A DNA stretch of 64,000 nt, taken from the NCBI GenBank assembly GCA_000934665.2, contig JYFJ02001206.1:1-64000 (forward strand), read 5' to 3'. This document shows positions 17,899-64,000 of the stretch, one piece after another. Positions within the stretch are counted from its first letter, which is position 1, and each line of letters starts with the position of its first letter. The notes under the pieces are model-generated. The model saw nothing but the letters and a program-made list of their open reading frames with translations. It was not told the origin of the DNA and searched no databases. This DNA is from Catajapyx aquilonaris (taxonomy: Eukaryota). The position numbers and the translations under genes are program-made.

Positions 17899-20800
17899 AT
17901 GACCTGGCTGGCCAGACATCATGGAAGGGAGGTCAAGGACAAGAGAAGGGTGGCGATTGAACTAGTTCTGGGCTTAAAATGGAGGTGAGTCATATGGACT
18001 AGTCAAGTTCTTGATTATAGAATTTACTGAATATTTCTTGAATGACAATTTTAATTTTCTGTCGAGAGTAAAACACGGATTTATACAAATAAAGTTGTTT
18101 ATCCTAATCTAGAGTTTGTGACTAGTTGATTCTTTCTGATTCAGAGATACCCCAGAGAAGCCTTGGGGATTGCGCCTGGCTGTTGCAACGTTGATGATGA
18201 TTCTGGTGTTGTTGATCTTAATGGCTCTGTATGGTGGCTTCGGATTAGATCTACACGATAGCACTAATGTAACAACTGTAATTACGACTACTGGTCAGGC
18301 TGTAGAATTTGTTGAGGGTTGTTACAAAGCAATATGCAAACCTCCAAAATTTAAATTCGGAGCAGATAAATGCGCATATACAATGAGTTGTTCTAAAATG
18401 AACAGTGATAAAATAGTTAGTGACGTGTGGTTTTATCTGAATGGTAATGACACCCAATTTAATGATGATGTTAGAAACCGCTGCATGGCCTCTAATATAT
18501 CACTTTCACTAGAACTTGATCATATTGTATTGCCCGATGTGATTCCTGCAAGTTGGCTGAACGGCGTAGAGGGTTGTGGTAAAAGGTTTTGTGCCATTGT
18601 CGAATACCTCACTCTTACTAGCAGTACGTTTCACACAATTGAGCCTTACGCATTCAGTAATTTGAGTATGTTGACCTTACTCCACGTAGAGGGCAATATT
18701 AAATTGTCTTTAGTGAAAGAGTATGCGTTCGTCGGATTGGAACAATTGATAGATTTGTCTCTGTCAAATAACCCCATTTTGACGCATTTAGATGAGAATG
18801 TTTTTGATAACCTCACATACTTAGACACATTGGATATTCGAGCCACTAACATTACTCTCGATGTTTTCAAAAGAACCATGAGTTCCCCAAGCCAGCTCAC
18901 GTCACTAACACTGAGCGTAAGTGATTCTTATGTCTGACACATTTAAGTTTGGAATGACTTCATCATTGTTGTCCTTTATAATCAAATCACTAGTACTACA
19001 ATGATTAATATCATCCAGCACTTTAAAAATCTGACTAGATTCATTTTAAAATGTGTAAATTTTCTAATAAGTTGTGATTTTCTCTCTCCAGCATTGTCCT
19101 TTGGAATACGTTCGGAATGATTCATTTTTAAATGTGCCTTTCATAAACTTGCTGTACATGGAAAATAGCCATATTACAGCAATAGAAGATGGAGCTTTGA
19201 CTGGTGTTGGTGTCCTGCAAGCAGTCGATCTGGCCCATAACAACCTGGTCACCCTTTCTAGAAATGTGTTTCCAATAATGACTGATGAACCCGGGCTTAT
19301 TATTGCCTTTGGTAATATGCCTAAAACCACTTTATCACATTTTTGTAATGCCTTTCTTACCCTTCCAAATTATTTCAGAAAACCCGTGGAATTGTACATG
19401 CGATTTAGAGTGGCTCAGAAATAGAATTGTGAAAAATATCGTCAAGGGCATGTCACTTCCCCGATGTTCAGCACCACATCATCTTTATGGCAAGGCCTTC
19501 AATGAGACAGGAAGTTTTTGCGACAATCATACAAGCACTCTTTCGCCATGGACGACTTCTGATTCTGACGTGACTACTAAGATACCCACTGAATATCCGA
19601 CAGATGAACCTACAGGCCCACCAACGAAAACAAGCCATGGAACGAGGCCATCTTACACTACATCTTGGACCACTAGTTCCACCACTAGCAGACCTTCCAG
19701 CCATATTCCGCTTCACACTACCACTTCTGCAACAACACTTTCGACTACTACAACTACAAGTCCAACTGCCACATATCCATCTACTACACAGCCATCTACC
19801 ACACAGCCATCCACAACAAGTAGTCCAACCACCCCACATCCATCACCAACGACCACGACACATTCATTTACAACAAATCCGACTCATCAAATCACATCTC
19901 CAGCTCCCACGAGCCATTCCACTACAGTGAGCTCAACACCTCTAAATTCACCCACCTCAAGTTCCACTTCTTCACACTCAAAGACAACAAGTCCCACCCC
20001 TTCTCCAACAACTGCTAGTCCCACAACGACAATTCCAACTACCACTTTTAAAACTACAACAATATCCTCTTCCACCAATTCTGATAGTACTAACCCTTCA
20101 ACAACAACTTCACAATCCACAACCTCATCAGGGTCCTCCTCCACAGCAGCACCCACAGATTCGCCTCACTCTACCAGCACTTTGACACCATTCACGTCCA
20201 CTCCAACCGACATGACAACCCACAGCCCGGTCGACAAACATTGTTGCAACGCCTACACAGGGCTAGGAAACTGCCCCTATCAAACAAGCAAAGACACCAG
20301 CAATAGCTGCCATCCAAACAAGTCCTCCAACACGACACTGTGTTACTTCCACTCCAACATCACAATATCATTTCTCAAGAGGAACATACCCCATCACATT
20401 ATGCTATACACCTACAATGGACAACGACACTGCTGGAAAAACGTGACCAATAACATTGTCATCCAGCAACTTCCTCCAGGCAAGAGCTTCACAGTTTGTG
20501 TGTCTCCTCAGTCCGGCCTCCTTACGTTCTCGCCCAATGATTGCACGATGAAAACAACAACTCTGAAACATAATGAAGAACCATGGCTGAGTCAAGGCAA
20601 CAAGGGACTAGTGTTTGGTCTCATTCCGGCGGTACTTGTGGTAGGGCTGATATCTGGAATTTTGATCGTCAGAGGACTAGGGAAGAGACCAAGAACGCGC
20701 CACATACGATCTGGAAAGCTGGCAATCTTCAGGAGAACCACCATATACCCAGAGGACAACGCGTCTGTGATATACGACGACGTATTGCCCTTCTTCCCTT

Positions 20801-20979
20801 CCAGACCATCAGTTTCGTCCAACGAAACCGTATCTGTTCGGTCAGAGGTCAGCAGTGATTACATTACAGTCCTGGATGCCGGGCCCATAGTACAGGACCT
20901 CTTGAAGAGCCTAGCATCACATGAATATTCTGGACACAAGAGTCCGGTGAAAATGACCCGTAGCATTTCGATATCATAA
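17899..20979 (+). CDS. LRR receptor C (paralog of A/B; ~240-aa Ser/Thr/Pro mucin stalk)
   Basis: Exons 17899-17984, 18145-18916, 19092-19311 and 19379-20979 splice in frame. First exon MTW...KWR matches receptor A. Tail VIYDDV...SDYITV...RSISIS. Confidence 0.88.
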
Positions 20980-28093: not shown

Positions 28094-30726
28094 ATGTCTG
28101 ACCTGCAAACCAGAGAGTACACCGTCCTCCATATGCTGGAGAGAGTCTCCGAGCCCCTCTTCTACCCCAAGGGCAACGGGAACGTCGTGTACCATCTACC
28201 ATCCGACTACATCGTAAGGTCGTGACATCCCATGTCCCTCCAATGCCCTGTACTTTTGCTGAATTTCAGGATGACCGATGGCAGAGTACCGCCAACGATG
28301 TGATGACCGACATCGCCAGCACCACACCAGAGCTGGAGTTTCGCATCGAGGCCAGAGCATTTCCAGAGCTGGACGAGATTGTCCAGCAGATTCCTGCTGA
28401 CGTACCCTGGAGTGTGTTCATACCATCGCATCGTCGTGCTGCATACCGTCTGATGGAGATATTCATCAATCAGACGGACTTCGAAGGGTTCAAGTCCTGC
28501 CTGGCATCGTGCAGGGACAGGATCAACCGGACCATGTTCGTCTTCGCACTGGAAGCGGCCGTGATGAGACGTCCTGACCTGAGAGGCCTTCGTCTCCCTG
28601 CCATCTGGGAGGTTCTCCCTGACCGGTTCGTAGACGCAGGGGTTATCGCCAGGGCTGGTCAGGAGGCTGGAGTCCCCGCTTCAAACAGGGTCAGTCACTT
28701 CCATATTGCCTAATAAGACCGTTAATAACCGTTAATAAGAGCACAACCGTTACAAGTCTGTCCACTTTCAGAGGTCCGTACGTCTGGAGCGAGACTTCAC
28801 CGGGACTGACCTTGACCCCGAGCATCGTGTGGCCTACTGGCGTGAGGATTTGGGTATGAATGCCCACCATTGGCACTGGCATTTGGTCTACACCCTGAAT
28901 GCACTGGATAAGGACCGAAAGGGAGAGCTGTTCTACTACATGCACCAACAGCTGGTCTGCAGGTAGAGACTTCAATACACGTATGAGTTGCATTGTACCG
29001 TGACCATTTTGCAGGTATGACAACGAGCGTCTCAGCACCGGGCTGTACCGCATACGGCGTCTGCAGGACTGGAGTCAGCCAATCCAAGAGGCCTACTACC
29101 CGAAGTTGACCAATGAAAACGCAGGGTTCGTCTGGGGGACACGCTCTCGCAACAATATCCTGACTGTAAGTCATGTCATCTATCAGGGTATTGTGACGTT
29201 ACTGATCTCTTGACCTTTCAGGACATTGTTCGCCCTGACTTGGACGTGATTTTTGACATTGACGACATGCGACGGTGGCGCGAACGCATATTCGAGGCCA
29301 TCCACCAGGGATTTGTCACAAGGGTATGTTTCTAAGTATTGTCTTCAACAATGTTACAACACTTTCTATGCAGGAAACTGGCGAAAGAATCCCGCTGAAT
29401 GACGATCGTGGTATCGATGTCCTGGGCGACATCGTCGAGGCTAGTGACCTCAACCCGAATCCGAACGTGTATGGTGACCTGCACAACATGGGACACGTAG
29501 CTCTGGCCTACATCCACGATCCGGATGGTCGCCACAGGGTTCGTATTAAGTGTGTTAAAATTTGGCATCAATTAAAAATGATCATTTTCAGGAGAGAAGC
29601 GGTATGATGGGAGACGTCAGCACAGCCATGCGTGACCCTGTGTTTTTCCGCTGGCACAAGTTCGTCGATGACATTTTCCAGGAGCACAAGGCTACACTAG
29701 CTGCCTACACAGAGAACCAGCTGGGCTTCCCCAACGTGTCCATCCAAAGTGTGACTGTCCAGACCCAAGGTGCCCGAACCACCAACCGTCTGACCACCTT
29801 CTGGCAGGAGAAGAACCTCGATCTGACCCGAGGTCTTGACCTACGTCCTTTCCGACGCGAGGGTGCGGTCAACGTCATCTTCACGCACTTGCAGCACGAT
29901 CCATTCACCTACACAATCACTGTGAGTATTGTCACATTGCCGTACATTCCAACAAAGTCGTAACTGCAATTATGTGGTGCAGGTCAACAACTCAGGGGGT
30001 TCTCCAGTAACCGGAACAGTCCGAATCTTCATGGCTCCACGTCGTGACGAATCCGGTACTCTGTACCGGTCTCTTCGAGAACAACGTGGACTCTTCTTGG
30101 AACTGGACAAGTTCTCCCAGACATGTAAGTGGTGGAATCATATTGACAACGACCATTAAATAAGTGACCTTTGTTCCTCAGTGCAACCTGGAAGCAACAC
30201 CATAACACGTCGTTCGGACGAATCCACTGTGTCCATCCCGTTCGAACAGACTTTTGCTCAGCTGCGAGACGCTGCTCCAATTCCGGAGCAGCCCACTGAC
30301 GCCGGGGGTGAACTTTTGACCCCTGACCAGCAGTACTGCGGATGCGGTTGGCCTCAGCATCTTCTGATCCCTCGAGGAAACGCGACCGGAATGGAGTTTG
30401 ACCTCTTCGTCATGATATCCAACGACCAGGTTCGACCTCAGAATGTGTGGACATAACATGACCCTTGTTGACCTCTTCTCTAATTCCAGTTGAACTTTGG
30501 TACCCGTACGTCTAACCCAGCCTGCCGTTCTTCCCTGAGCTACTGCGGGTTGCGAGACCAGCTGTACCCAGATTCTCGTCCGATGGGTTTCCCCTTCGAC
30601 CGTAACCCTGCACAGAACGACAACATGTCTGTCGCACTGATGCAGCAGCGTTACCCGAACATGCGTGTCATCAATGTGACCATTCAGAACAACAACAACC
30701 GCATCGAGATGGCCAGGGACACATAG
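28094..30726 (+). CDS. PPO: Prophenoloxidase 1 (type-3 copper, haemocyanin superfamily), 10 exons
   Basis: No signal peptide; EPLFYPKG N-terminus; CuA HHWHWH...GELFYYMH; Cu[10 protein letters not shown]...[24 protein letters not shown]...MGFPFDR. Exon 1 is 28094-28213. Confidence 0.92.
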
Positions 30727-32154
30727 TAGACGGATGCTGCAAACATATAATCAACATGTAATCTGCCACATAATTATGTAGTCACAATATTAGCAGAATA
30801 TTATCACCTTTTCCTCTTTACATTTTTTTTGTTTGTTTTCCATGTAATCAACATTACTCCAAATAAAAATAAGGTTACATACCTACATTATCTTCCTTTA
30901 TTGAATATTCCCAGATACAAGGCCTTAGCATTGCAAGTACAACGTGAAAGTTTTCTGCTTGATGTCTATACGCTTTCACACCTGAATATTTTATACATGA
31001 AAGGTCTGATTGGATCTTGGTGATGGTCAACTATACTTCACTACCAGTTCACATGGTGGTCAACTACTTCGCTACCAGCTGGACTGAAAACGCCACGTAC
31101 TCTGAAGATAAACACTAGATATTTTACCAATAATAGCAGTTATATACTTACACGTTCATGCTCGTCACTGTGAATGTGTTTGGATTTTGAAATAATTTTC
31201 CTCGTCTAGAAGGTCTTAAATAAATTTTCAAAAACTCAGAAACTCGAAATTCAAGTACTGTACTACCGGCCAACTGCTTGGCTGATTTAATTATTATGAA
31301 ATGTATTAAAACATACGGATCATCTACGAGTACATTGAGAACCGTGGCAGATGAATTTACTGAAATCTCCGTACTTAGCGAGAAATAAATAAATTTGGGA
31401 GTTTTCCCAAGAGCAAGCAAGCCGCAGATGAGAATTCATTTAATTCTCGTGAAGTACGACGATTTCAGCAAATTAGTCTGGCACTGTTCTCAAGGCAGAT
31501 GTCCCATGTGTTTTAATGTATTTCATAAAGTCCCCCTAACACTTTGAATTTCGAGTTTTTACAGCGATATTTTTGAAAATATATTATTAATTTAGGGACT
31601 TCCAGACAATGAAAATTTATTGTTCAAAAGACCTCCATAGTGTTTTGCATGAACGTGTAAGTGCATCTGTTATTATTTGTAAAATATCTTGTCCTTATAT
31701 CTTCAGAGTACTTGTAAGCCAAAAATCTATAGGCGTTGCAGTGTTCTATTTGGAAATTAATTTCGGGCCTTCAAGACCACGAAAATGGTTCAAAACATGT
31801 CCATAGGGTTTTCCCTGAACGGGTAAGTATAGCTGTTATTATTATTTACAAAATATAATGTCCGTATCATCTGAGTAGGCCTACGTGTAATCGAAAATCT
31901 AGGCGTTTTCGGCCGATCTGATATAGCGAAGTGGTTTAGGACGTTCTGCACTTCACACTACCTGTTCTGTTATTCATAATAAATCATAATTATTTTATAA
32001 TAAATTATTACCTAAGGAAGTAAGAATGTTAAATTATTTTATTTATTTCTCATGGCCTCACGACCCTCCCCAGTTGGGCACTAGTTAGTTGCTGTACCTG
32101 TCAATGTATTTAAAATAAGAGCTGCGTTTGAAATAAAAGCAAGGAGCAAGTTAG

Positions 32155-33372: not shown

Positions 33373-36003
33373 ATGTCCGACGATATGCAGACACGAGAGT
33401 ACACTCTCCTCCACATGCTGGAGAGAGTGTCAGAGCCCCTCTTCTACCCAAAGGGCAATGGGAACGTCATCTACCACATGCCTCCAGACTACATCGTAAG
33501 TCCTCCTGAATACCATTGATTCACTGTACTTATGTATTATGTATTTCAGGATGACCGCTGGCAGAGCACCGCCAACGATGTGATGACCGACATTGCCAGC
33601 ACCTCACCCGAGCTGGAGTTTCGCATCGAGGCCAGAGACTTTCCAGAGCTGGACGAGATTGTCCAGCAGATTCCAGTGGACATACCCTGGAGCGTGTTCA
33701 TACCGTCGCATCGCCGTGCTGCATACCGTCTGATGGAGATATTCATCAACCAGACGGACTTCGAAGGGTTCAAGTCCTGCCTGGCATCGTGCAGGGACAG
33801 GATCAACCGGACCATGTTCGTCTTCGCACTGGAAGCGGCCGTGATGAGACGTCCTGACCTGAGAGGCCTTCGTCTCCCTGCCATCTGGGAGGTGCTCCCT
33901 GACCGGTTCGTAGACGCAGGGGTCATCGCCAGGGCTGGTCAGGAGGCTGGAGTCCCCGCTCCAAACAGGGTCAGTCACTTCCATATTGCCTAAGAGCACA
34001 ACCGTTACAAGTGTCCACTTTCAGAGGTCCGTACGTCTGGAGCGAGACTTCACCGGAACTGACCTTGACCCCGAGCATCGTGTTGCATATTGGAATGAGG
34101 ATCTGGGCATGAATGCTCACCATTGGCACTGGCATTTGGTCTACACCCTGAATGCACTGGACAAGGATCGAAAGGGAGAGCTGTTCTTCTACATGCACCA
34201 ACAGATGATTTGCAGGTAATTGCTTCCATCACTAATCAAATGTTTCCGAGTTAAAAATGTCTTTGTAGGTATGACGTGGAGCGTCTTTGCAACGGGCTGC
34301 ACCGCGTGCAGCGTCTTCAAGATTGGGACAAGCCAATAGAACAGGCCTACTATCCGAAGCTGACCAATGAAAACGCAGGGTTCGTCTGGGGAACACGTTC
34401 TCGCAACAGTATCCTCACGAATATTATACGTCCTGATATTGACATAATATTCGACATTGATGACCTGCGTCGTTGGCGTGACCGCATCTTCGAGGCCATC
34501 CACCAAGGATTTGTAACCAGGGTATGTGTTCAAGTCTGCACATGTAACCTCACATTGACGTATGTCGTTACGTAGGCAACCGGTGAACGAATCTCGCTGA
34601 ATGACGACCGCGGCATCGACGTTCTTGGTGACATCGTCGAGGCGAGTGATCTCAACCCGAATCCGAACATGTACGGCGACCTGCACAACCTGTTACATGT
34701 TGCTTTGGGCTACATCCACGATCCTGATGGACGGCACAGGGTGAGTCAACCCATTCGCCTTGATAGAGTGCTGCAACTAATCCACAATTTGACATTGCAG
34801 GAAAGAAGCGGCGTCATTACAGACGTCAGCACAACAATGAGAGACCCCATATTTTACCGTCTACACAAGTTCGTCGACGACATTTTCCAGGAGCACAAGG
34901 CCACGCTAAATGCATACACAGAGAATCAGCTGGGCTTCCCCAATGTGTCCATCCAAAGTGTGACTGTTCAGACCCAAGGATCCAGAACCAGCAACCGTAT
35001 GACCACCTTCTGGCAGGAGAAGAACCTTGACCTGACACGAGGTCTTGACCTGCGTCCTTTCCGTCGCGAGGGTGCGGTCAACGTCATCTTCACGCACTTG
35101 CAGCAAGATCCATTCACCTACACAATCACCGTGAGTATTGCAACACTGCCGTACGCAAAAAAGTTGTAACTACAATATTGTTTGGAACAGGTCACCAACT
35201 CTGGCGGTTCTCCAGTCACTGGAACAGTCCGTATTTACCTTGCCCCACGTCGTGACGAATCCGGAAAAGTGTACCGGTCTTTCCGTGAACAGCGTATTCT
35301 CTACATGGAACTGGACAAGTTCTCTCAAACACGTAAGTCCAACGACATCGACCATAGTGTGAACTCACTAAGTGACCTTTGTTCCTCAGTGCAACCTGGA
35401 AGCAACACCATAACACGTCGTTCGGACGAATCCACTGTGACCATTCCGTTCGAGCAGACCTTTGCTCAGTTGCGAGACGCCGCACCTCCGATACCGCCAC
35501 AGCCCACTGATGCCGGGGGTGAACTCTTGACCCCAGAAGACCAGTACTGCGGATGCGGTTGGCCTCAGCATCTCCTGATACCAAGAGGAAACGCGACCGG
35601 AATGGAGTTTGACCTCTTCGTCATGATATCCAACGACCAGGTATAGCAATTCGCAAATTCGCACCTTTAAAAGTAGCTGTTCCAAAGTAGCTGCTTTTCA
35701 GAAAAGAGCAGGGCCAAAAATCGCCACTCATCCAAACAGACATGCTGACCTCTTCTCTGTTTCCAGTTGAACTTTGGCACCCGTGGGCCAAACCCGAGTT
35801 GCCGTTCCTCCCTGAGCTACTGCGGATTGAGGGACAAGCTGTACCCGGACCCGAGGCCCATGGGTTTCCCCTTTGACCGCAACCCTGCGCCCAACGACAA
35901 CCCGAGTGCCCAGGACCTGCAACAGCGCTATCCGAACATCCGCATATCTACCGTGACCATCCAGCACAACAACAATCGCGTGGAGATGCCAGCCAGGGCT
36001 TAG
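33373..36003 (+). CDS. PPO: Prophenoloxidase 2 (tandem paralog), 9 exons
   Basis: Same architecture as PPO1 with all six Cu-ligand His present (HHWHWH/YMH; HNLLH/YRLH). Lacks the intron PPO1 has at 29166-29221. Confidence 0.92.
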
Positions 36004-44315: not shown

Positions 44316-47300
44316 CTAGGAGAGTAGGTCAAAGTACTGGCGCGGATTAATAGGCGGCCGCGATCGCGGCCAGCCGCGGCCGATGATACGGTGGTGTGTG
44401 TTCCGGAAACTCGCACTGCTAGCATTCTCCATGATCGGACCTGGAAGAACAGGCACACCGCCATCTGGAATATGGTTCTCATGGGTCACTGAAACTTCTT
44501 CCTGATGGTCCGGACGACAACGCAGGTCGTCGTTGCTGCTGTTGGGTTGTTGTTGTTTGTCATATTTGGTTTGACTGTATCGGACCTCGCCATTGTTGGG
44601 GCACTTCATGGTGTCCACCACCGGGTGTCTCTCTGGGCGACGGCGATGGCAGCACCACACTGTCACGCAGATCTGAAGTTGAGCACACCACGTGACGTTG
44701 TCGTGAGAAAATAACGACTCATGACAACGACTGTAAAAGTGGGTTCATGCTACCAACCACAAGAATGGCACGTTGGAGGTAGGAGCATTGTGTCAGAAGA
44801 GGTGCTTACCATCAGTAAGAGACAGACCACTGCTAGTGCCGTGATCAACGATATGTTGATGATGAAGCAAGGCCCAGACAAGAACGACGTATCTTGGTCT
44901 GCTAAACACAAATTGTTCAGTTTATGTATAGGTAAGTGACACTTAACTAGTTGACAAACCATGGCGGTCGTGATCGTGTGTCTCCTCATCGGTGTCAGTG
45001 TCAGAATCACCAGTACTTTCAATAATGGTTTCCACATTTGTGGTTGTAGCTTCGGTAACTATCTTTTCGCATATGAATGGCATTGAGTGAGAGCAAGGGT
45101 AGTCGTCAAATTGTCCTACAGACAACTGAACGCAGTCTTCCTTTTGCCTCAGACCATTCGGCTCACCTCTAGACCACCCCCTGTTTAATATCAAAAAAAT
45201 AATATCAAATTTAATCTGCCCCACCAGACAGTTCTAACCACAGGCCTAAGGACTGCTGGCAAGTACCACTGTTAAAATGTGAGATTCAGTTAGGAAGAAG
45301 CAATTCACATAGTGTAGTGCTGATGACTTACAAAATTGTTTCATCCAGAAAATCTTGGTTAATCCACTTCCATTTGGTGGATTCGTGCCGTTCGAGTCCA
45401 ACCCACCATTCCTGGCAACTATCTGTGTTGTTTGCTATCACATTTCTGAGCATATCCTGTGGGCAAAATGCAGTGGTTAAGTGTAACACTTGATGATATA
45501 AATCATACTCTATGAGTCTATGTCTTTAAAAAGTTCCGGTCAAGCGTATCCATGTTTGCTATACCAGCACCAGAACTCGAGCAAGTGGTTGTACTTGTAT
45601 AGCGCCAAGAGTGGTTTGCCCTAAATATATTGTGACATCCAGTGTTATACCGCTTCATCCTTGGAAGTGACAGTGGCCAGGGACAATCCTTCGGCCTCGC
45701 AGGTTCTGTACGCTTCATACCACGACAGTGTCCTCGTTGACGGCTCGTACGATACTGATCCATTAGTTCCTCCTGAATTCAATTGCACCATGAGAATAGC
45801 ATATGGATTACAAAAATGGTGACATACGTGACTGGCACATGTAGCATAGAACTGTCTGACACCTCCTGTCGTTGAGGCCTTGATTAGATCTGTCAACTTC
45901 ACCACAATCTGCAAAGTCATTTCCATTGTTGGGTTGGCCCTCCCTCCAGGTTCTGAAATATTGTCGTGTATTGGATTGTTTTATTTAGATGGAAAGCAAT
46001 TTGTCACAGTTTATGACTCACGCTATACTGTCATCCAGCTTCCTTCTGCTTGTCCATAGCCACTGCCCCTCTACTTCAGAATCGGTCAATCCAATAGCCC
46101 ATCCCTTCGTGTCGTTTATTCCAATCACACCAATTATCCAGGTCTGACAGGAATGTTCATCAAACATCAAAATTAATATTCAAAGATTCAATTAAAATTT
46201 ACTACCTTCTCTTCCTGTGAATCAATTGCAAGCAGGTCACCTCCTCTTGACCTGCAATATTCCATGGCCGATACCCACGGAATGTGATTCTCGTTGAATA
46301 TGTAACTGCTGGACGAGTCGTTTCGAACCAGCCATAATTCAGGGTTATTGATAGTTGTGGACTCCGATGTGATGAACAGTTCGGTGGTCGACAGCAGCGT
46401 CTCCGTGGTTGTTGGCAGTGTTGTTGTTGTTGTGGGCGGAGGGGTCGTAGTCGTAGTCGTAGTCGTAGTCGTAGTCGTAGTCGTAGTCGCATTCGTCGTT
46501 GTAGTTGTAACTAATATCAAAGGAATTCAAACAATGCATCATCAATAATATCATATCATGCTGTAATACTCACTTGTCTCGCAACGAATACCATCCGCTG
46601 TAAGTCGCTGTCCTTCTGGACATGCGCAGACGGGGACAGTACCGTTGGTTGATGGGTCAGGACGGGGCAGGCACAGATAAGCGCAATTACAGGTGAAGTT
46701 TGTGGTCATCTGCCTTTCTTTTGAAATGACTCTCAGATGGTTTACATCCTGCAAGTGAACCACATTATACTTTCTGCGGCAAATATGTTACACCCTGTAT
46801 TCACAACGGTTACCGGTATGTCCACGACATTTTCTACCACTGGATTGTCCTGGCAGAACCGGTAAATCTGGGTGCCAACAGACACAAAGACCAGCCCGTC
46901 CACCACGGCCAGTCCCGTGGCGCCTATGAACTCTGACCCCTCCGACCCAACGATCTGGTGCTGTGACCCATCCGACCAGGAATAGTACGCGACATGTCCG
47001 TCCATCTCCACCCAAACCAGCGCTCCTCTTTGAGCATCGAAGGAGAGGACAGTTGCAGTACTACCCTCGCCAAGGTCCACCACCTCCTTGACCTCTGACC
47101 CATCCCCAGCTGCCCTCCATATTCCGTTTCCGGCTGTCCAGAAGAGCCAGCCGCCAATCGAGTCCACCACAAGGCCATGTGACGATCCTGGCAGACCCTC
47201 CAGAAGGGTCACGATACGTGACCCGTCCAAACTGGACACTGCCAGTGACCTTGACCCCGAGTCCTGTTGGATCCAGTACAAAAGGTCATGGCTTCTATCC

Positions 47301-48502: not shown

Positions 48503-51500
48503 TTATACCTCCTGTTGGGGACAGTAGTTGGTGTACTGCCCACAGACACCGCCAACAGTCTGGTCCATTGAGATGGCCTCGTAGATCTCGGCATAGTCGC
48601 CACTGCCCGCATCCGATAACCTGGATCCTACAGGAGGGGACACCAGATTGGCCCTGCTGCTACCATTCCTCATGATCAGACCTGGAAGAACAGCCACAAC
48701 ACCAACTGGAACAATATGGTTCTCATAGGTCACTGAAGCTCTGTCCTGATGGTGCGGACGACAACGCAGGTCGTCGTTGCTCCTGTTGGGTTGTTGTTGG
48801 TTGCCAATTTTGGTTTGACTGTATCGGACCTCGTCCTCGTTGGGGCACTTCATGGTGTCCTCCACCGGGTGACTCTCTCGGCGGGGGGGATGGCAGCAAC
48901 ACGCCGTCAAACCGAACTGAAGTTGAGGACACAAAGTGTCGTTATCGACTGTAAAATTGGGTTCATGCTACGAACCACATAGATGACAACCCATGGAGCT
49001 AGGAACATTGTGTCAGGAGAGTTGCTTACCATCAGTAAGACACAGGCCAGTGCTAGTGCAGTGATCAACGACATGTTGACGATGAAGCATGGCCCAGAAA
49101 GGAACGACGCATCTTGGTGTGCTAAATACATTTAAAAAATTGTTGAGTTTATGTAGGTAAGTGACACTTAACTAGTTGACAAACCATGGTGGTGGTTGTT
49201 GCGTGTCTCTTCATCGGTGTTCGTGTCAGAATCATAAGAACTTTCAGGAGTGGGTTCCGCAGTTGAAACATTGGTGGTTATAGCTTCGGTAACTATTTTT
49301 TCGCATATGAATGGCCTTGGGTGAGAGCAAGGGTAGTCGTCAAAATCTCCTTCATACAATTGAACGCAGTCTTCCTTTTGCCTCAGACCATTCGGCTCAC
49401 CTCCAGACCACCCCCTGTTTAATATCACAAATTAATACCAATTTCACCTTACCCCACAAGACAGTTCTAGCAGTAGTGGCTACCACAGGCCTAAAGACTG
49501 TTGTTAAAGCCTTCCTAAGCAAATACCGGTACATAACGGTATACCATTGTTACAATGTAATATTCAGTTAGGAAGAAGCAATGATTCACATAGGGCTGAT
49601 CACTTACAAAATTGTTTCATCGAGAAACTTCTGGTTAGTCCACTTCCATTTGGTGGATTCGTGTCGTTCGAGTCCAACCCACCATTCCTGGCAACTATCT
49701 GTGTTGCTTGCTATCACCTTTCTGAGCATACCCTATGGGTAAAACGAAGTGGTTAAGTGTAACACTTGATGCTCTATGTCTTCCCGACCAAACGTATCCA
49801 TCTGCTACATGCCACCATCAGAACTCTAGCATGTGGTTGTATAGCGCCAGGAGAGGTTTGGCCAAAATTGTAACATCCAGTATTATACCGCTTCATTCTT
49901 GGAAATGACAGTGGCCAATGACAATCCTTCAGCCTGGCAGGTTTTGTACGCTTCATACCACGACAGTGTCCTTGTTGACGGCTCGTACGATACTGATCCA
50001 TTAGTTCCTCCTGAATTCAATAATAATGCACCATGAGAATAGCATATGGATTACAAAAATGGTGACTTACGTGATTGGCACATGTAGCATAGAACTGTCT
50101 GACACCTCCTGTCGTTGAGGCCTTGATTTGATCTGTCAACTTCACCACAATCTGCAAAGTCATTTCCATTGTTGGGTTGGCCCTCCCTCCAGGTTCTGAA
50201 ATATTGCCGTGTATTGGATTGTTTTACTATAGATGGAAAGCAATTTTTGTCACAGTTTATGACTCACGCTATGCTGTCATCCAGCTTCCTTCTGCTTGTC
50301 CATAGCCACTGCCCCTCTACTTCAGAATCGGTCAATCCAATAGCCCATCCCTTCGTGTCGTTTATTCCAATCACTCCGATTATCCAGGACTGACAGGAAT
50401 GTTCATCAAACATCAAAATTAATTCACAGATTGAATTAAATTTACTACCTTCTCTTCCTGTGAATCAATTTCAAGCAGGTCACCTCCTCTTGACCTGCAA
50501 TATTCCATGGCCGATACCCACGGAATGTGATTCTCGTTGAATGTGTAACTCCTGGACGAGTAGTTTCGAACCAGAGTTGTGGGCTCCGATGTGATGAACA
50601 GTTCGGTGGTTGTTGGCAGCGTTGTTGTTGTGGGCTGAGTCGTAGTCGTCGTTGTTGTTGTAACTAATATTAAAGGCATTCAAATCATGCATCATTTCAT
50701 ATCATGCTGTAATGCTCACATATTTCGCAACTAAAACCATCCGCTGTAAGTCGCTGTCCTTTTGGGCATGCGCAGACGGGGACAGTACCGTTGGTTGATG
50801 GGTCAGGACGGGGCAGGCACAGATATGTGCAATTGCAGGCGAAGTTTGTGGTGACCTGCCTTTTATTTGAAATGACTCTCAGATGGTCTACATCCTGCAA
50901 GTTAACCACATTATACTTTCTGCTGCAAATATGTTACACCTTGTATCCACAACGGTTACCGGTATGTCCACAACATTTTCTACCACTGGATTGTCCTGGC
51001 AGAACCGGTAAATCTGGGTGCCAACAGACACAAAGACCAGGCCATCTGCCACGGCCAGTCCCCTGGCGCCTATGAACTTTGACCCCTCCGACCCAACGAT
51101 CTGGTGCTGTGACCCATCCGACCAGGAATAGTACGCGACATGTCCGTCCATCTCCACCCAAATCAGCTCTCCTCTTTGGGCATCGAAGGAGAGGGCTGTT
51201 GCAGTACGACCCACGCCGAGGTCTACCACCTCCTTGACCTCTGACCCATCCGCAGCTGCCCTCCATATTCCGTTTCCGGCTGTCCAGAAGAGCCAGCCGC
51301 GAACAGAGTCAACGACAAGGCCATGTGACGATCCGGGCAGACCCTCCATAAGAGTCACGGTTCGCGAACCGTCCAAACTGGACACTTCGAGTGACCTCGA
51401 CCCAGAGCCCTGATGGGTCCAGTACAAAAGGTCATGGCTGTTATACAGGGCCAGGTCTTCTACCATTTTGCTAGCGATTCGTATCTTCCTGTATGTCGGT

Positions 51501-52690: not shown

Positions 52691-54968
52691 TCACCTGCGT
52701 CTCCCCAGACTGGTGGCGTCGTGATACATATACTTTTTAGAGGAACCAGAAGACTGCTGATAGGCCATGTTTCCGTAAACAGGCTCTTCCTCCTGTTGGG
52801 GACAGTAGTTGGCGTACTGCCCACAGACATCTCCAACAGACTGGTCCATGGAGATGGCCTCGTATACCTCGGCATAGTCGCCACTGACTATATCCGGAGA
52901 CCTGGATCCTCCAGGAGGTGCCACCAGGTTGGCCCTGCTGCTAGCATTCTCCTTGGTTAGACCTGGAAGAACAGCCACACCACCAACTGGAACATGGTTC
53001 TCATAGGTCACTGAAGCTTCTTCCTGATGGTCCTGACGACAACGCAGGTCGTCGTTGCTTCTGTTGGGTTGTTGTTGTTTGCCAATTTTGGTTTGACTGT
53101 ATCGGACCTCGCCCTTGTTGCGGCACTTCATGGTGTAGAAGTCCTCCACCGGGAGTCTCTCTCGGCGACGGCGGTGGCAGCACCACACTGTGATTCCAAT
53201 CTGAAGTTGAGGACACCACGTGTCGTTGTTGTGAGAAAATAATGGCTCATGACAACGACTGTAAAATTGGGTTCATGCTACCAACCACAAGAATGGCACG
53301 TTGGAGGTAGGAGCATTGTGTCAGAAGAGGTGCTTACCATCAGTAAGAGACAGACCACTGCTAGTGCCGTGATCAACGATATGTTGATGATGAAGCAAGG
53401 CCCAGACAAGAACGACGTATCTTGGTCTGCTAAACACAAATTGTTCAGTTTATGTAGGTAAGTGACACTTAACTAGATGACAAACCATGGTGGTGGTGAT
53501 CGTATGTCTCCTCATCGGTGTCCGTGTCAGAATCACCAGTACTTTCAGTAGTGGTTTCCACAGTTGAAACATTGGTGGTTGTAGCCTCAATAACTATCTT
53601 CTCGCATATGAATGGCCTTGAGTGAGAGCAAGGGTAGTCGTCAAATTGTCCTACAGACAACTGAACACAGTCTTCCTTTTGGCTCAGACCATTCGGCTCA
53701 CCTCTAGACCACCCCCTGTTTAATATCAAAAATTAATATCAAATTTTACCCTGCCCCACCTGTTCTAACATTAATGCCTACTGCCTACCCTAAGGAGTGA
53801 TGGTAAAAGAAGCCTAAGCAAGTACATACCGATATTAAAATGTAAACCGTTAGTAAGAAGCGATGCTGATACTTACAAAATGGTTTCATTCAGAAAATCC
53901 TGGTTAATCCACTTCCATTTGGTGGATTCGTGTCGTTCGAGTCCAACCCACCATTCTTGGCAATGGTCTGTGTTGATTGATATTACCTCTCGGAGCATAT
54001 CCTGTGAGTGAAATGCAGTGGTTTGTCATAACACTTGGTACTGTAATACTTGTCCAAAATAAAGTTTTGGCCAAACGTATCTTGTTGCTATGCGGTTGTA
54101 TAGCGCCAAGAGAGGTTTGCCCAAAATGGTGACATCCAGTGTTATACCGCTTCATTCTTGGAAGTGACAGTGGCCAGTGACGAACCTTCAGCCAGGCAGG
54201 TTTTGTACGCTTCATACCACGACTGTAGCCTAGTTGACGGCTTGTACAATACTGATCCATTAGTTCCTCCTGAATTCAATTACACCATGAGAATAGCATA
54301 TGGATTACAAAAATGGGGACTTACGTGATTGGCACATGTAGCATAGAACTGTCTGACACCTCCTGTCGTTGAGGCTTTGAGTAGACCGGAAAACCTCGCC
54401 ACAATCTTCATGGTAATTTCCATTGTTGGGTTGGCCCTCCCTCCAGTTGCTGAAGTATTATATTCGACTGTTGTACTATAAATGTCATGAAAATTGTCAG
54501 AGTTTATGACTCACGCTATACTATCATCCAGCTTCCTTCCGCTTGTCCATATCCACTGGCCCTCTACTTCAGGATCGGTCAATCCAATAGCCCATCCCAT
54601 AGTACCATTTGTTCTGGCAATCACTCTGATTATCCAGGACTGACAGGAATATTCATCAAACATCAAAATTTATAATTTAAATATTCAATTAAAATTTACT
54701 ACCTTCTCTTCTTCTGAATCAATTTCAAGCAGGTCACCTCCCCTTGACCTGCAATATTCCCTGGCCGATACCCACGTCATTTGATTCTCGTTGAATATGT
54801 ACCTTCCTGAGGAACCATGTCGTACCAGCCATTGTTCAGCATTCAACCTGTTTGCTGTTAACGTACCTGCAAACACCACATTTAGTCATACACTTTAGAA
54901 TTACAAGTGAATGTACAGTACATACCGATACTGAAGTATGCAAGTATGAGAACAGCCCAGCCTTTCAT
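52691..54968 (-). CDS. C-type lectin receptor L4: SP, 2 CTLDs (QPN, EPN), TM, long multi-Tyr tail; donor of the 3' half of X1/X2
   Basis: Own signal exon MKGWAVLILAYFSIG (54968-54926) and exon 2 at 54866-54703. Tail YSQT, YENH, YAEVYEAI, YANY, VYGNM, YMYHD. Confidence 0.87.
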
Positions 54969-59993: not shown

Positions 59994-62007
59994 TCAAACA
60001 TTTCCCACAGGTTGGTAAATATTGTCATCCGATATCCGATTTTCAGGCTGGTAAGAAGTATGACCAGTTCGACGTTCCACAGGTACCACATCGTCATACT
60101 CGTTTTCGTCAGGTAGAGGCCTCGGGTCACGACGAGGCTGCTGTTGCTGGACAGGACGAGGAGGAGGCCCATACTCATTAGGTTGGATATGACTAGTAGG
60201 ATTGTTGCGATTTCGAACTGATCTATTTACAGCTTCAGTGGCTTCAGTCTTAGGAACAGGCGGAGGCATTTGATTAGGAACAGGCGGGGGCATTTGATTC
60301 AAGAAATTGTCTTCCACAGGCTTCCGATTTCGGGTCTTCTCTCGGTACCACATGTAGGACATACCCTGTTGAAAGTTATTTACATGATTATCGCCAAAAT
60401 TAGCCAAATGACTTATCGAGCATATGTGCCCAGTCAACTGATAGGACACCAATGATATAGATAATTACAATCAGTGCAGCCAGTGTGACGGTGAAAAAGA
60501 CTGCCAGGACGATAACGGCGTCATTGTTGCGGTCACTTCCTTGTGGAGGACACACTGGAGATGCAACAAGTAATTAGCACTAATGGTGTTGAAAGAGATG
60601 ATGCCACAGCAGCCTACCTGTTGATGTGGTAACACTGCTTGTTGTTGTGGTCGTCAAATTCGTTGTACTGGTCGGCACAGTAGTGACCGGAACTTTCGTC
60701 GTTGTTTCCGTTGTAATGGTGGTAGGGAGGTCATTAACCGTACAAATAAACGAGCCGAATTCACCACATGCAACAGTAGCCAAATATCTTCCGTTAAATT
60801 TGACACACATGCTGTCGTTGGCTGGAGGATTAATCCAATCTCTGTGTAGCACAAATAGTTGTGTCACATGTAATATCTACTAATAATAATGAGCACAACT
60901 AACATGATTGAAGAGTTGAATAAACTTCCGTCCATCCAGTGCCAATTTCCGTCCACAAAGGTCAGTCCAACCCACCACCAGGGGCCGAATGACTTGAACT
61001 CATAGCTTTCCAGAGTTTGGTTAATCGTGTCCTGTAGGTCATATTGGCATCAATTTAACACTGATCAACTATTCCAAGACAAATTAGTGGGTTGCCGGCA
61101 TATTAGAAAGGAGAGGTTGTAATCGACCAGGAAGTGATTGAGCGCCCTGTAATCACCGAGGTGATTATTACAGGGCAGGCAACTTATGATAACTGCTACA
61201 CAATGGGTTTCACAATGATATAGACAAAACAAAGTTCATAGGCATCATGTGACCAAAAAATCATTTAGAAAACACCAGGGTCCAGTTGCCAAAAGTTGGC
61301 AAAAGTAAAACTGGTTAGTGTGGTAAATGCAGCAGGGAGGGGAGCGACATCCGACGGCAAAGCGGTAAAGTGCAGAAGTAAGTGAGTCGCCACCAGGTCG
61401 CCACCGGCCAGGAGGCGCCGCCCTGAGAGCCGAGCGGCGAAAATGGGAATTCCGTGGACCCGGCTTTTTTGAGGTTTCTGGGGGTATTTTGCATTTGACA
61501 AAGTCCCTCCGCACTTTTTCCAAAAAGAAAAGTGGTTTGCAAATATAGAAAACGCGGGCTAAATTTTGAGACCCCTCCCAATAATGTAGGCCGTACGGTG
61601 CGGGAGGAGTTTCCACGATAGTCGTAGATTAACAATTGAAAGTGTAAATATCGATAGGCACTGTCTAAGAACATGGCTCCAGCTATTGTTCAGGACGACT
61701 TACTGACGAATCCCCAGTAGATGTGACTCACCTTCTCTTCTTCAGTCTTAATCAGCACCAAGTCGCCCCTTGTCAAGCAGTATCTTCTCGCCTCACCCCA
61801 CTGAAGCATTGTTGTGCAAAATTCATAGCTGTGGTTTGCTCCAGGGATCTCACTGCATGAATATGCCTCAGGAAGAGTGTCCCCTGAAACAAAGCCTCAT
61901 GTGGATTTGCAACAATCAAGTACATTCCACTTACCTGTTGCTATGAAGGTCCATAACAGCCCTGCAACCAGGAGATAAGTAGTTTTTGAGCAATAGTGAG
62001 GCAGCAT
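59994..62007 (-). CDS. Single-CTLD receptor L7: SP, CTLD, mucin, TM, Pro-rich tail with EYDDV and NIYQPV
   Basis: Signal exon 62007-61935 (MLPHYCSK...FIATG); WGEARRYC, WWWVGL, FICTV; TM VIVLAVFFTVTLAALI|GMSYMWY. Confidence 0.8.
61060..61690. mobile_element. Probable transposon-derived insertion enlarging an L7 intron
   Basis: ~700-bp intron with a GC-rich core where homologous introns are ~60-200 bp. No clean TIR or TSD identified. Confidence 0.35.
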
Positions 62008-62598: not shown

Positions 62599-64000
62599 TT
62601 ACATGATTGATTTTCTTGGGGGCAAAGGAGGAGTTCGTTGAGTGTTATGCGTCGCTGCAGAACTTGCATCAGCATAAATTTCATCATCATTTGCATTTTT
62701 ATGTACATTTCCTCCATCATTATAAATGGGTTCTTCAGTGACGTTTCCTGCATCATCATAAGTACTCTCATCATTGTTTGCATGAACCTGGACCGGTGTG
62801 GTACTTTCTGCATCATCGTAAACAGGATTATGATTCTGGCCATTTGTAGCATCATCATAAATAGGATGTTGATTATGGCCATTTGTAGCATCATCATAAA
62901 TAGGATTTTGATCCTGGTCATTCTCCACGACATTTGTAGCGTCGTCGTAAACAGCAGAATTTTCGCAGTGCCCATGTCGAGAATTATGTGTCACATTCAT
63001 ATCTTCATATATAGGTGCCTTAATATTTCCAGCCTCTTCATACACTTTGTTGTGATGTCTGGAAGTGGGTGACACATTTCCTGCATCAACATAAGTTTGT
63101 GGTCTGTTGTTCTGATGTGAAAAATCACGTGATATATTTCCAGCATCGATATATGTGCTGTTGTCCTGGATACTTGTTGCTGGAGATTGCTGATGACTTC
63201 TGGGTGGTAAATGCCGATTGTCTTCCTGGCTATGGATTTGAACTATTGCTGATGACCCAAGACCACTCGGGCTGGCTTGATGGGAATTGCTTACCTGATC
63301 CGGGCTATAAAAATTAGTAGACCTTACAGAATTCATTAGAGACTTGCCCAGTCCTGGCCTTCTTTTATGCCACAAAAAGGTCATAACCTGCAAAATGGAT
63401 AATCACTGTATATTGCGTAAGTAGTACTTAATTATAGAAAATAAGACCTTTGTGTGCAGGGTTTCTAAAAATATGCAATTACCAGTAATCCTATCAGGGT
63501 GATTGCAAACAAAGTGCCCAAAGCGATAGCAGCACCCCTACTTTTATCTCCTTGTACAATGACCACCGTTGCTTCTGTAAAATAATTAATATGCATATAA
63601 TTTATTAAAATGCTACTATATGTAATCAAATTATATTAATTCAATGACATACTTGTAGTACTTTGGAGATGTGTCGTCCTTGTCGATTCTGTAGTATTTG
63701 CATATGTTGTGGTTGTCTCTTTTGTGTGGTTGGAAGTGTGGTTGTAATATTCATTGTTGTAGTTACAGCTGTGGCAGCTGTTGTTGCATTATGTGGCTCT
63801 GATGTGACTTTTGACGTTGATTTCGTGGTATGACCAGTTGCCTTGATGGTCAAGTTCTGAATAATTTTTCCTGCATGGACGTCACGAACTTTGCAGATGA
63901 CCGAGTGGGTAAAATCACAGGGAAAAACATTCATTCCTTCATGTGTAATTGCCACGCACCCGGTGGTTTTTTGCAACTCCACATCACTTCTGTAACAAAA
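62599..64000 (-). CDS. C-type lectin receptor L8 (5' part outside window): CTLD end, mucin, TM, ~260-aa tail with an array of Y-x-[DE] motifs
   Basis: GCVAI...FPCDFTHSVICKV; TM exon about 63574-63483 (GAAIALGTLFAITLIGLL); last exon 63387-62599. Confidence 0.85.

What the first reader, a model, noticed from the sequence alone, without database searches (positions are those of the whole stretch)
62599..63387. L8 tail is an array of 11 Y-x-[DE] motifs ending in PPLPPRK
TYIDAG, TYVDAG, VYEEAG, IYEDM, VYDDAT, NPIYDDAT, HPIYDDAT, NPVYDDA, TYDDAG, EPIYNDG and EIYADA recur every 9-21 residues, arising by internal duplication (a 39-bp repeat is visible at about 62805-62905). Acidic I/V-Y-D-D sites resemble Src/Abl substrates and Nck-type sites of nephrin and Tir, and two are NPxY. 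Such valency could nucleate signalling or actin condensates, which is striking for an invertebrate lectin receptor.
Basis: partly seen in the sequence, partly recalled or inferred. Interest (0 to 1): 0.7.

Follow-up and report, generated by a model that had tools for sequence, protein, structure and literature searches.

The report
Broken lectin receptor with tyrosine-repeat tail
An arthropod lectin-type receptor gene ends in an inner tail of eleven repeated tyrosine motifs plus a proline motif that would likely recruit and feed a Src-type kinase, but in this assembly a one-base frameshift upstream would keep that tail from being made.

Summary
62599-63387 (-) is the last exon of a signal/CTLD/Thr-rich stalk/TM receptor. 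11 of its 12 tyrosines have D/E at +2, 11-20 residues apart, made by in-frame duplication; PPLPPR-KSIM ends it.

(1) The stalk exon is one base short compared with neighbour L7, so with the canonical splice sites the gene stops at 234 aa, inside the TM exon. No reads could be laid, so real lesion versus assembly error is open. (2) The sites are not Nck/nephrin/Tir-type or Abl-type: +3 is Ala in 9 of 11, never Val or Pro. They score well on a c-Src kinase matrix (9 of 5000 shuffles reach the mean) but not on a Src-SH2 matrix (1579 of 5000). PPLPPR is a published Src and Drk SH3 ligand.

Best reading: a p130Cas-like tail (kinase dock plus many substrate sites) whose reader is unknown. No homologue was found. 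The scan has noted repeated tyrosine motifs in other invertebrate receptor tails on other DNA (e1-8576851). Moderate-low interest.

The parts
62599..63387 (-). Last exon of L8: end of TM (VMTFLW), basic stop-transfer HKRR, about 250-aa acidic, low-hydrophobicity tail, stop codon
   Evidence: net charge -21; 15% WFILVCM residues
62658..63165 (-). Array of 11 Y-x-[DE] motifs; Tyr codons start at 63153, 63093, 63042, 63009, 62949, 62898, 62859, 62820, 62760, 62724, 62676; core Y-x-D-A-[GT]-N
   Evidence: +2 D/E 11 of 11, +3 Ala 9 of 11, +5 Asn 8 of 11; DNA repeat families D1, D2
62810..62922 (-). Youngest duplication: 39-bp (13-codon) tandem array, 2.9 copies
62614..62631 (-). PPLPPR class II SH3 ligand (overlapping class I RxxPxxP), followed by KSIM-stop (possible class I PDZ end, recalled rule)
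   Evidence: PMC4509517, PMC3038869, PMC10532153
63483..63574 (-). TM exon (AAIALGTLFAITLIGLL); read out of frame in the assembled allele, giving a stop at about 63496-63494, 11 nt before the last junction
   Evidence: best 19-residue hydropathy 2.44 in the TM frame, 1.29 in the as-assembled frame
63653..63989 (-). Exon with the C-terminal part of the lectin domain and the Thr/Ser-rich stalk; 337 nt, one base short of the phase 2-in/1-out pattern of L7
63710..63740 (-). Approximate site of the one-base frame break (short AC repeat and a run of four A); the Thr/Ser-rich reading changes frame here
63990..64000 (-). Intron at the window edge; the gene continues beyond the window on G000:C504: exons 64159-64059 and 64373-64219 (lectin domain) and a tentative signal exon 64872-64842
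59994..62007 (-). L7, the adjacent intact gene with the same six-exon plan (intron phases 1,0,2,1,0); its 123-aa last exon carries one canonical YDDV

Best explanation
The stretch is the last exon of a single-lectin-domain, mucin-stalk, membrane receptor gene that is frameshifted upstream in this assembly, and its duplicated tyrosine array likely worked like the p130Cas substrate domain: a Src-family kinase would dock by its SH3 domain on the terminal PPLPPR and phosphorylate many acidic tyrosines. Shown: exon plan, lectin-domain likeness, TM, motif array, in-frame duplications, frame break, presence of candidate partners in the genome. Inferred: receptor clustering by an unknown ligand (the lectin domain lacks EPN/QPD/WND, so probably not a calcium-dependent sugar ligand) brings kinase and tail together; phosphorylation gives many individually weak sites (+3 Ala), so output would depend on avidity; PPLPPR may also bind Drk/Grb2. 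The phospho-reader is not identified. As assembled, the gene would give a 234-aa truncated, probably unanchored lectin. The absence of any other lesion in 501 codons implies the break is recent or an assembly error. My split: about 0.6 real allele, 0.3 assembly error, 0.1 rescued by cryptic splicing.
For: Exon phases of L8 match L7 up to the stalk exon (1,0,2 then 0,2 versus 1,0), and the Thr/Ser-rich reading switches frame near 63725. The L8 ectodomain scores 28.8 bits on a 4-domain profile of neighbour CTLDs, against a best of 9.1 among 1000 shuffles, and keeps the four Cys and WWIG. The tail frame has 0 stops in 262 codons versus 8 and 31 in the other frames. DNA repeats found without regard to frame are spaced in multiples of 3 in 7 of 7 (D1) and 5 of 5 (D2) intervals. 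+3 Ala is kept through 4 GCT and 5 GCA codons; pN/pS is 0.49 in the core of five related units versus 0.94-1.02 in the flanks of all 11. c-Src kinase matrix: mean 1.34; 9 of 5000 shuffles reach it; 7 of 11 sites exceed the 95th percentile (1.30) of 825 control Tyr. PMC4509517: a class II ligand beginning PPLPPR placed C-terminal to a Src site lowers Km from 28.7 to 6.1 uM. Drk binds PPLPPR in D-CblL and Sos. Cas has 15 YxxP motifs plus a Src-binding domain (PMC8791637). A Src-family SH2 gene, Grb2, Nck and WASp are in the genome.
Against: There is no homologue to show conservation. Motif units are duplicates, so shuffle tests overstate significance, and the units were chosen on their Tyr. pN/pS over +3..+5 for all 11 units is 0.99 and over +1..+5 is 0.74, so selection on the motif is only modestly supported. 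+2 Asp and +3 Ala are both slightly disfavoured on the c-Src kinase matrix, and the first two sites score poorly (0.15, -1.01). The matrices are for human proteins. No known SH2 consensus tested fits well. The signal exon is tentative. Only 3 neighbours (3564 coding bases, no break) were modelled, too few to estimate the assembly's indel error rate.
Confidence: 0.5

Rival explanations
1. Gene status rival: the frame break is an assembly error or a segregating null allele, and the species makes an intact receptor of about 500 aa. Compatible with any tail mechanism.
For: The break lies in a short AC repeat/A4 run; no other stop or splice lesion in 501 codons; tail frame fully open.
Against: L6, L7 and L9 (3564 coding bases) and long single-exon frames of 300-565 aa in the contig show no break. 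Single-N gaps at tandem repeats suggest a short-read assembly, where such indels are uncommon (inference). The lectin family is very large (149 of 150 scored candidates, 617 found), so broken copies are expected. No second haplotype copy exists in the assembly.
Confidence: 0.3
2. One reading: the phosphorylated tail binds Nck/Dock SH2 at many sites and nucleates Nck-WASp actin condensates, as nephrin does.
For: I/V at -1 in 8 of 11, D/E at +1 in 7 of 11, spacing 11-20, similar to nephrin's roughly 20-residue spacing (PMC9333988). Clustering depends on valency as well as affinity (PMC4238058). Nck and WASp genes are present. A weak Atlas look-alike is vaccinia A36 (score 0.79, a level that shuffled sequences often reach).
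Against: 0 of 11 sites have the +3 Val/Pro of the Nck consensus, while L7 and three LRR receptors on the same contig do carry YDDV, so the canonical site is available in this genome and L8 does not use it. The tail is not made from the assembled allele under canonical splicing.
Confidence: 0.17
3. The array is mostly a by-product of slippage and duplication in a fast-evolving disordered tail; only one or two sites and the PPLPPR end matter, or the gene is simply decaying.
For: Neighbour tails vary from 0 to 13 Tyr; flank pN/pS is about 1 and +3..+5 is 0.99 over all units; similar P-I-[YF]-D-D repeats occur in unrelated proteins such as a secreted fungal chitin-binding protein; the gene is broken as assembled.
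Against: Old, diverged units keep Y, +2 acid, +3 Ala and +5 Asn while linkers differ (column identity 0.5-0.8 versus about 0.1), with synonymous codon variation; duplications keep the frame.
Confidence: 0.22
4. The tail is mainly a trafficking signal: the NPxY motifs bind PTB/FERM adaptors for uptake or recycling of a scavenging lectin.
For: Two NPxY; a sub-threshold Pfam hit to the integrin beta tail over one of them (E 0.028, 14.5 bits against a cut-off of 23.4).
Against: Only 2 of 11; the third copy of the 39-bp array is HPIY; no hydrophobic residue at -5; no Yxx[LIV].
Confidence: 0.08

Closest known systems
p130Cas/BCAR1 substrate domain plus Src-binding domain (PMC8791637, passages)
   Same: Disordered region with more than ten repeated tyrosine motifs and a C-terminal Src-docking proline motif; multi-site phosphorylation
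   Different: Cas is a soluble adaptor with YxxP sites read by Crk and Nck; L8 is a membrane lectin-like receptor with YxDA sites (YxxP 0 of 12) and no sequence homology
Nephrin, Tir and vaccinia A36 Nck-recruiting tails (PMC4238058, PMC9333988, passages)
   Same: Membrane protein with acidic [IV]-Y-D-[DE] sites about 13-20 residues apart
   Different: Those have +3 Val and 1-3 sites; L8 has +3 Ala/Met/Gly and 11 sites; Nck binding is not shown
Oyster signalling C-type lectin receptors CgCLec-HTM and CgCLec-TM1 (review PMC13027682, passages)
   Same: Invertebrate transmembrane CTLD receptor with a tyrosine-based cytoplasmic motif
   Different: They use one hemITAM and Syk; L8 has no Yxx[LIV] and a divergent CTLD without EPN/QPD/WND
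PPLPPR SH3 ligands: Src class II peptide, Drosophila D-CblL and Sos (PMC4509517, PMC3038869, PMC10532153, passages)
   Same: Identical six-residue core
   Different: Here a single copy at the end of a receptor tail; binding untested

Membership tests
Type I membrane C-type-lectin-like receptor | CTLD with four core Cys and WIGL-like motif | tested here: met
   28.8 bits on a neighbour-CTLD profile versus at most 9.1 for 1000 shuffles; blastp to L9 E 2e-6; single-exon fragments gave no Pfam Lectin_C hit
Type I membrane C-type-lectin-like receptor | Signal peptide, TM helix, cytosolic tail in one open frame | tested here: not met
   All parts are present, but the frame breaks in the stalk exon as assembled; signal exon tentative
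Calcium-dependent sugar-binding C-type lectin | EPN/QPD and WND motifs (recalled) | tested here: not met
   The alignment shows none in L8; L6 and L9 domains keep QPN/EPN
Nck-recruiting tails (nephrin/Tir type) | pY-D-x-V/P sites | tested here: not met
   0 of 11
Nck-recruiting tails (nephrin/Tir type) | Phosphorylation-dependent Nck binding and clustering | not testable with these tools
   Needs biochemistry
ITAM/hemITAM/ITIM receptors | YxxL/I/V motifs (recalled) | tested here: not met
   Yxx[LIV] 0 of 12
Cas family | SH3, YxxP array, helical bundle and CCH domain | tested here: not met
   YxxP 0 of 12; no such Pfam domain in the tail
Src-family kinase substrates with SH3 dock (works-like) | Aliphatic -1, acidic flanks, PxxPxR ligand C-terminal to the sites | tested here: met
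   (sequence match only)
Src-family kinase substrates with SH3 dock (works-like) | Actual phosphorylation | not testable with these tools
   Needs kinase assay or phosphoproteomics
Abl substrates | +3 Pro, +1 Ala preference | tested here: not met
   +3 Pro 0 of 12; +1 Ala 1 of 11; the Abl matrix was seen only in part and not scored
PTB-binding NPxY | NPxY with hydrophobic -5 residue (recalled) | tested here: inconclusive
   NPxY in 2 of 11; -5 is D or N

The most novel reading that the evidence does not exclude
The receptor is intact in the species, and its Y-x-D-A-[GT]-N array is a selected, deliberately weak phosphotyrosine code. It would be read by an arthropod SH2/PTB protein with an undescribed +3-Ala preference, or by Nck/Src SH2 only at high valency, and coupled to a built-in Src dock. 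That would make a lectin-like receptor with a self-amplifying, threshold-type, Cas-like tail grown by exon-internal duplication.
Probability: 0.15. Interest if true: 0.6.

Novelty: new variant of a known kind. Interest (0 to 1): 0.3.

Why it matters
If the tail is made and phosphorylated, it shows how an invertebrate recognition receptor can build a Cas-like multi-site signalling module in a few duplication steps. It also gives a natural test of valency versus affinity: eleven weak YxDA sites in L8 against one canonical YDDV in its neighbour L7. If the frameshift is real, it is an ordinary birth-and-death casualty in a very large lectin family and mainly a caution that open last exons need their upstream frame checked.

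Tried and rejected
RNA runs: no RNA holder listed; this says nothing on expression, and with no run ids no reads were laid, so the frame break is unverified.

Homologue searches with the tail: none among 3015 candidates of near length or 6055 longer candidates; 3 hits at E<=0.001 among 1.84 billion representatives, all unrelated repeat proteins (scallop, anaerobic fungus, unnamed); none of 58 pattern matches in metagenome contigs; only self in the own genome by protein and DNA. Atlas hits were all under 0.85 with low recognition, and the named-only search was blank; leads only.

Own-genome motif patterns: the YDDATN pattern gave 4 matches, 3 in L8 and 1 in an 18-codon frame. The [IV]YDD[AV] pattern gave 157 matches (control 342); among the 100 listed, L8 was the only cluster; 57 were not listed.

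An ab initio gene finder I wrote failed to recover L6 and L7, so its output was dropped. Exon models of L4, L5, L10 and L11 were not made; they were read by eye only, which leaves the rate of broken copies in the cluster open.

Splice rescue: 24 donor/acceptor pairs keep an open frame (14 GT, 10 GC). All use non-consensus donors; three of the four GT donors have C at +3, seen in 0 of 25 modelled donors; the fourth (GTGACG) is not excluded. Judged minor.

Extracellular orientation (5 N-x-S/T sequons, sulfation-like YDD): rejected on signal-CTLD-stalk-TM order and HKRR after the TM.

No complex or fold prediction was run. No Rfam match for the intron repeat.

Ten literature searches listed no paper on an arthropod lectin receptor with such an array; the library is open-access only.

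Full report
Observation. The stretch 63387-62599 on the minus strand is one open frame of 262 codons that begins at an AG acceptor and ends KSIM-stop. It holds 12 tyrosines. None of 200,000 residue shuffles reached 11 (maximum 8), but the units are duplicates, so this overstates significance. Tandem Repeats Finder places the 39-bp array at 62810-62922. The wider repeat search finds 8 copies of a 24-nt core and 6 of a 23-nt core, whose spacings are multiples of three in 7 of 7 and 5 of 5 intervals. The other two frames have 8 and 31 stops. The frame has therefore been under coding constraint while the array grew.

Context. The window is G000:C504:1-64000 of a 286-Mb animal assembly. Its phenoloxidase matches insect proteins at 43-51% identity, so it is an arthropod without a close relative in that database. 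C-type lectin domains are much expanded: 149 of 150 scored candidates match, of 617 found. Gene labels other than L8 are my own numbering along the cluster. The ectodomain scores 28.8 bits against a profile of four neighbour lectin domains, versus at most 9.1 for 1000 shuffles, and keeps the four cysteines and WWIG. It lacks EPN/QPD and WND (motif roles recalled), so calcium-dependent sugar binding is unlikely.

The frame break. The adjacent intact gene L7 has the same six exons with intron phases 1,0,2,1,0. L8 gives 1,0,2,0,2, because its stalk exon is 337 nt, one base short. The Thr/Ser-rich reading moves from one frame to another near 63725, at a short AC repeat and a run of four A. With the canonical GT-AG sites the protein ends at 234 aa, reading the TM exon out of frame (best hydropathy 1.29 against 2.44 in the TM frame), with the stop 11 nt before the last junction. 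Read through with X at the break it is a 501-aa type I receptor with no other lesion. Twenty-four alternative donor/acceptor pairs would restore an open frame, but all use non-consensus donors: three of the four GT donors have C at +3, seen in 0 of 25 modelled donors, and one (GTGACG) is not excluded. There is no second copy in the assembly, no RNA holder was listed and no reads were laid. L6, L7 and L9 (3564 coding bases) have no break; four more neighbours were read by eye only. I put a real recent lesion at about 0.6, an assembly error at 0.3 and splice rescue at 0.1.

What the motifs look like. Across the 11 units +2 is acidic in 11, +3 is Ala in 9 (Met 1, Gly 1) and +5 is Asn in 8; linker columns have about 0.1 pairwise identity. 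Ala is encoded by GCT four times and GCA five times. pN/pS is 0.49 in the core of five related units and 0.60 in the 39-bp array, but 0.74 over +1..+5, 0.99 over +3..+5 and 0.94-1.02 in the flanks of all 11 (pairs are not independent and units were chosen on Tyr). Selection on the motif is thus modestly supported. On the c-Src kinase matrix of PMC10065799 (supplement 2, part 1 seen) the sites average 1.34. Ten of 11 exceed the shuffle median, 5 of 11 its 95th percentile, and 9 of 5000 shuffles reach the mean with their best 11 of 12 tyrosines; 7 of 11 exceed the 95th percentile of 825 phenoloxidase tyrosines. On the c-Src SH2 matrix (supplement 6, part 1 seen) they are unremarkable: 0 of 11 above the 95th percentile, 1579 of 5000 shuffles. 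Abl strongly prefers +3 Pro, found in 0 of 12. Nck's consensus is pYDxV (PMC2661883) or pY[DE][EL][PV] (PMC3514216), and the nephrin and Tir sites are YDEV/YDQV (PMC4238058); L8 matches in 0 of 11, whereas L7 and three LRR-TM genes in the window carry YDDV. There is no Yxx[LIV], so no ITAM, hemITAM or ITIM (definitions recalled), no YxN, and one YxxM. The two NPxY lack a hydrophobic -5 residue (rule recalled).

The end motif. PPLPPR (62631-62614) is the core of the class II Src SH3 ligand. Placed C-terminal to a Src site, that ligand lowered Km from 28.7 to 6.1 uM (PMC4509517). The same six residues bind Drosophila Drk in D-CblL and Sos (PMC3038869, PMC10532153). The genome has 41 SH2 matches of 53 candidates, including a Src-family SH2, Grb2 and Nck, and a WASp WH1 domain. 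Other SH2 identities were assigned by eye and are not relied on.

Mechanism. Most likely (0.5) the tail works like the p130Cas substrate domain (15 YxxP plus a Src-binding domain; PMC8791637), here built into a receptor. Ligand-driven clustering would let a Src-family kinase dock on PPLPPR and phosphorylate many acidic tyrosines, and the weak +3-Ala sites would act through avidity. Ligand, phosphorylation and reader are all inferred. The Nck/WASp condensate model is possible, because clustering depends on valency as well as affinity, but it lacks the defining +3 residue (0.17). Largely neutral repeat growth (0.22) and an NPxY trafficking role (0.08) are the other rivals.

Comparison and novelty. 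No homologue of the tail was found; the three database hits are unrelated repeat proteins and the Atlas hits are leads only. Invertebrate lectin receptors that signal through tyrosine motifs are known (oyster hemITAM receptors; review PMC13027682), as is Dock binding to an arthropod receptor tail (Dscam; review PMC12074976). Multi-tyrosine tails are common in this cluster: the last exons of L6, L7 and L9 have 13, 6 and 0 tyrosines. An earlier unchecked note reports repeated NxxY motifs in sea-squirt receptor tails. Ten searches of the open library listed nothing on this arrangement. All papers named were seen as search listings and passages only, plus the two supplement parts named; PMC7145657 and PMC9333988 likewise as passages. 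The primary Nck specificity paper (Frese 2006) was not available, so tolerance of +3 Ala by Nck is not settled.

Verdict: real feature, new variant of a known kind (multi-phosphotyrosine docking tail), on a gene that is broken as assembled; interest 0.3.

Noticed in passing
window 13154-14086, 16010-16918, 19282-20976 (+): Three LRR-TM paralogs all keep YDDV and DYIT[VI] in their cytoplasmic tails: a conserved canonical Nck/SLP-76-type site paired with an ITIM-like site.
   Followed up: partly
window 59994-62007 (-): L7, intact, has a proline-rich tail with ENEYDDVV (canonical Nck-type) and DNIYQPV, which score 2.49 and 2.73 on the c-Src kinase matrix; a better Nck candidate than L8. Its second intron is 700 bp against 50-100 typical, suggesting an insertion.
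   Followed up: partly
L002 2430-2700 (contig 64430-64700): A dispersed repeat of about 270 bp with about 40 scored copies at 84-96% identity lies in L8's first intron; SINE-like by eye, no Rfam match.
   Followed up: partly
window 58543-58473 (-): GC-AG intron in L6; the same GC donor appears by eye in L5.
   Followed up: partly
contig 65516-67072 (-), L002 3516-5072: L9, an intact two-CTLD receptor, has a 31-aa last exon with no tyrosine, beside neighbours with 6-13, in line with a mix of signalling and non-signalling tails.
   Followed up: partly
window 44319-44744 and 48506-48967 (-): Two tails paralogous to 52694-53272 diverge or end early relative to it, possibly truncated copies.
   Followed up: no
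contig 76109-76765 and 79946-80702 (L003): Two genes for secreted-looking proteins made of YEQPKYE/SYG repeats, with single-N gaps.
   Followed up: no
window 28102-30750 and 33520-35643 (+): Two tandem prophenoloxidase genes; the second matches insect phenoloxidases at 43-51% identity.
   Followed up: partly
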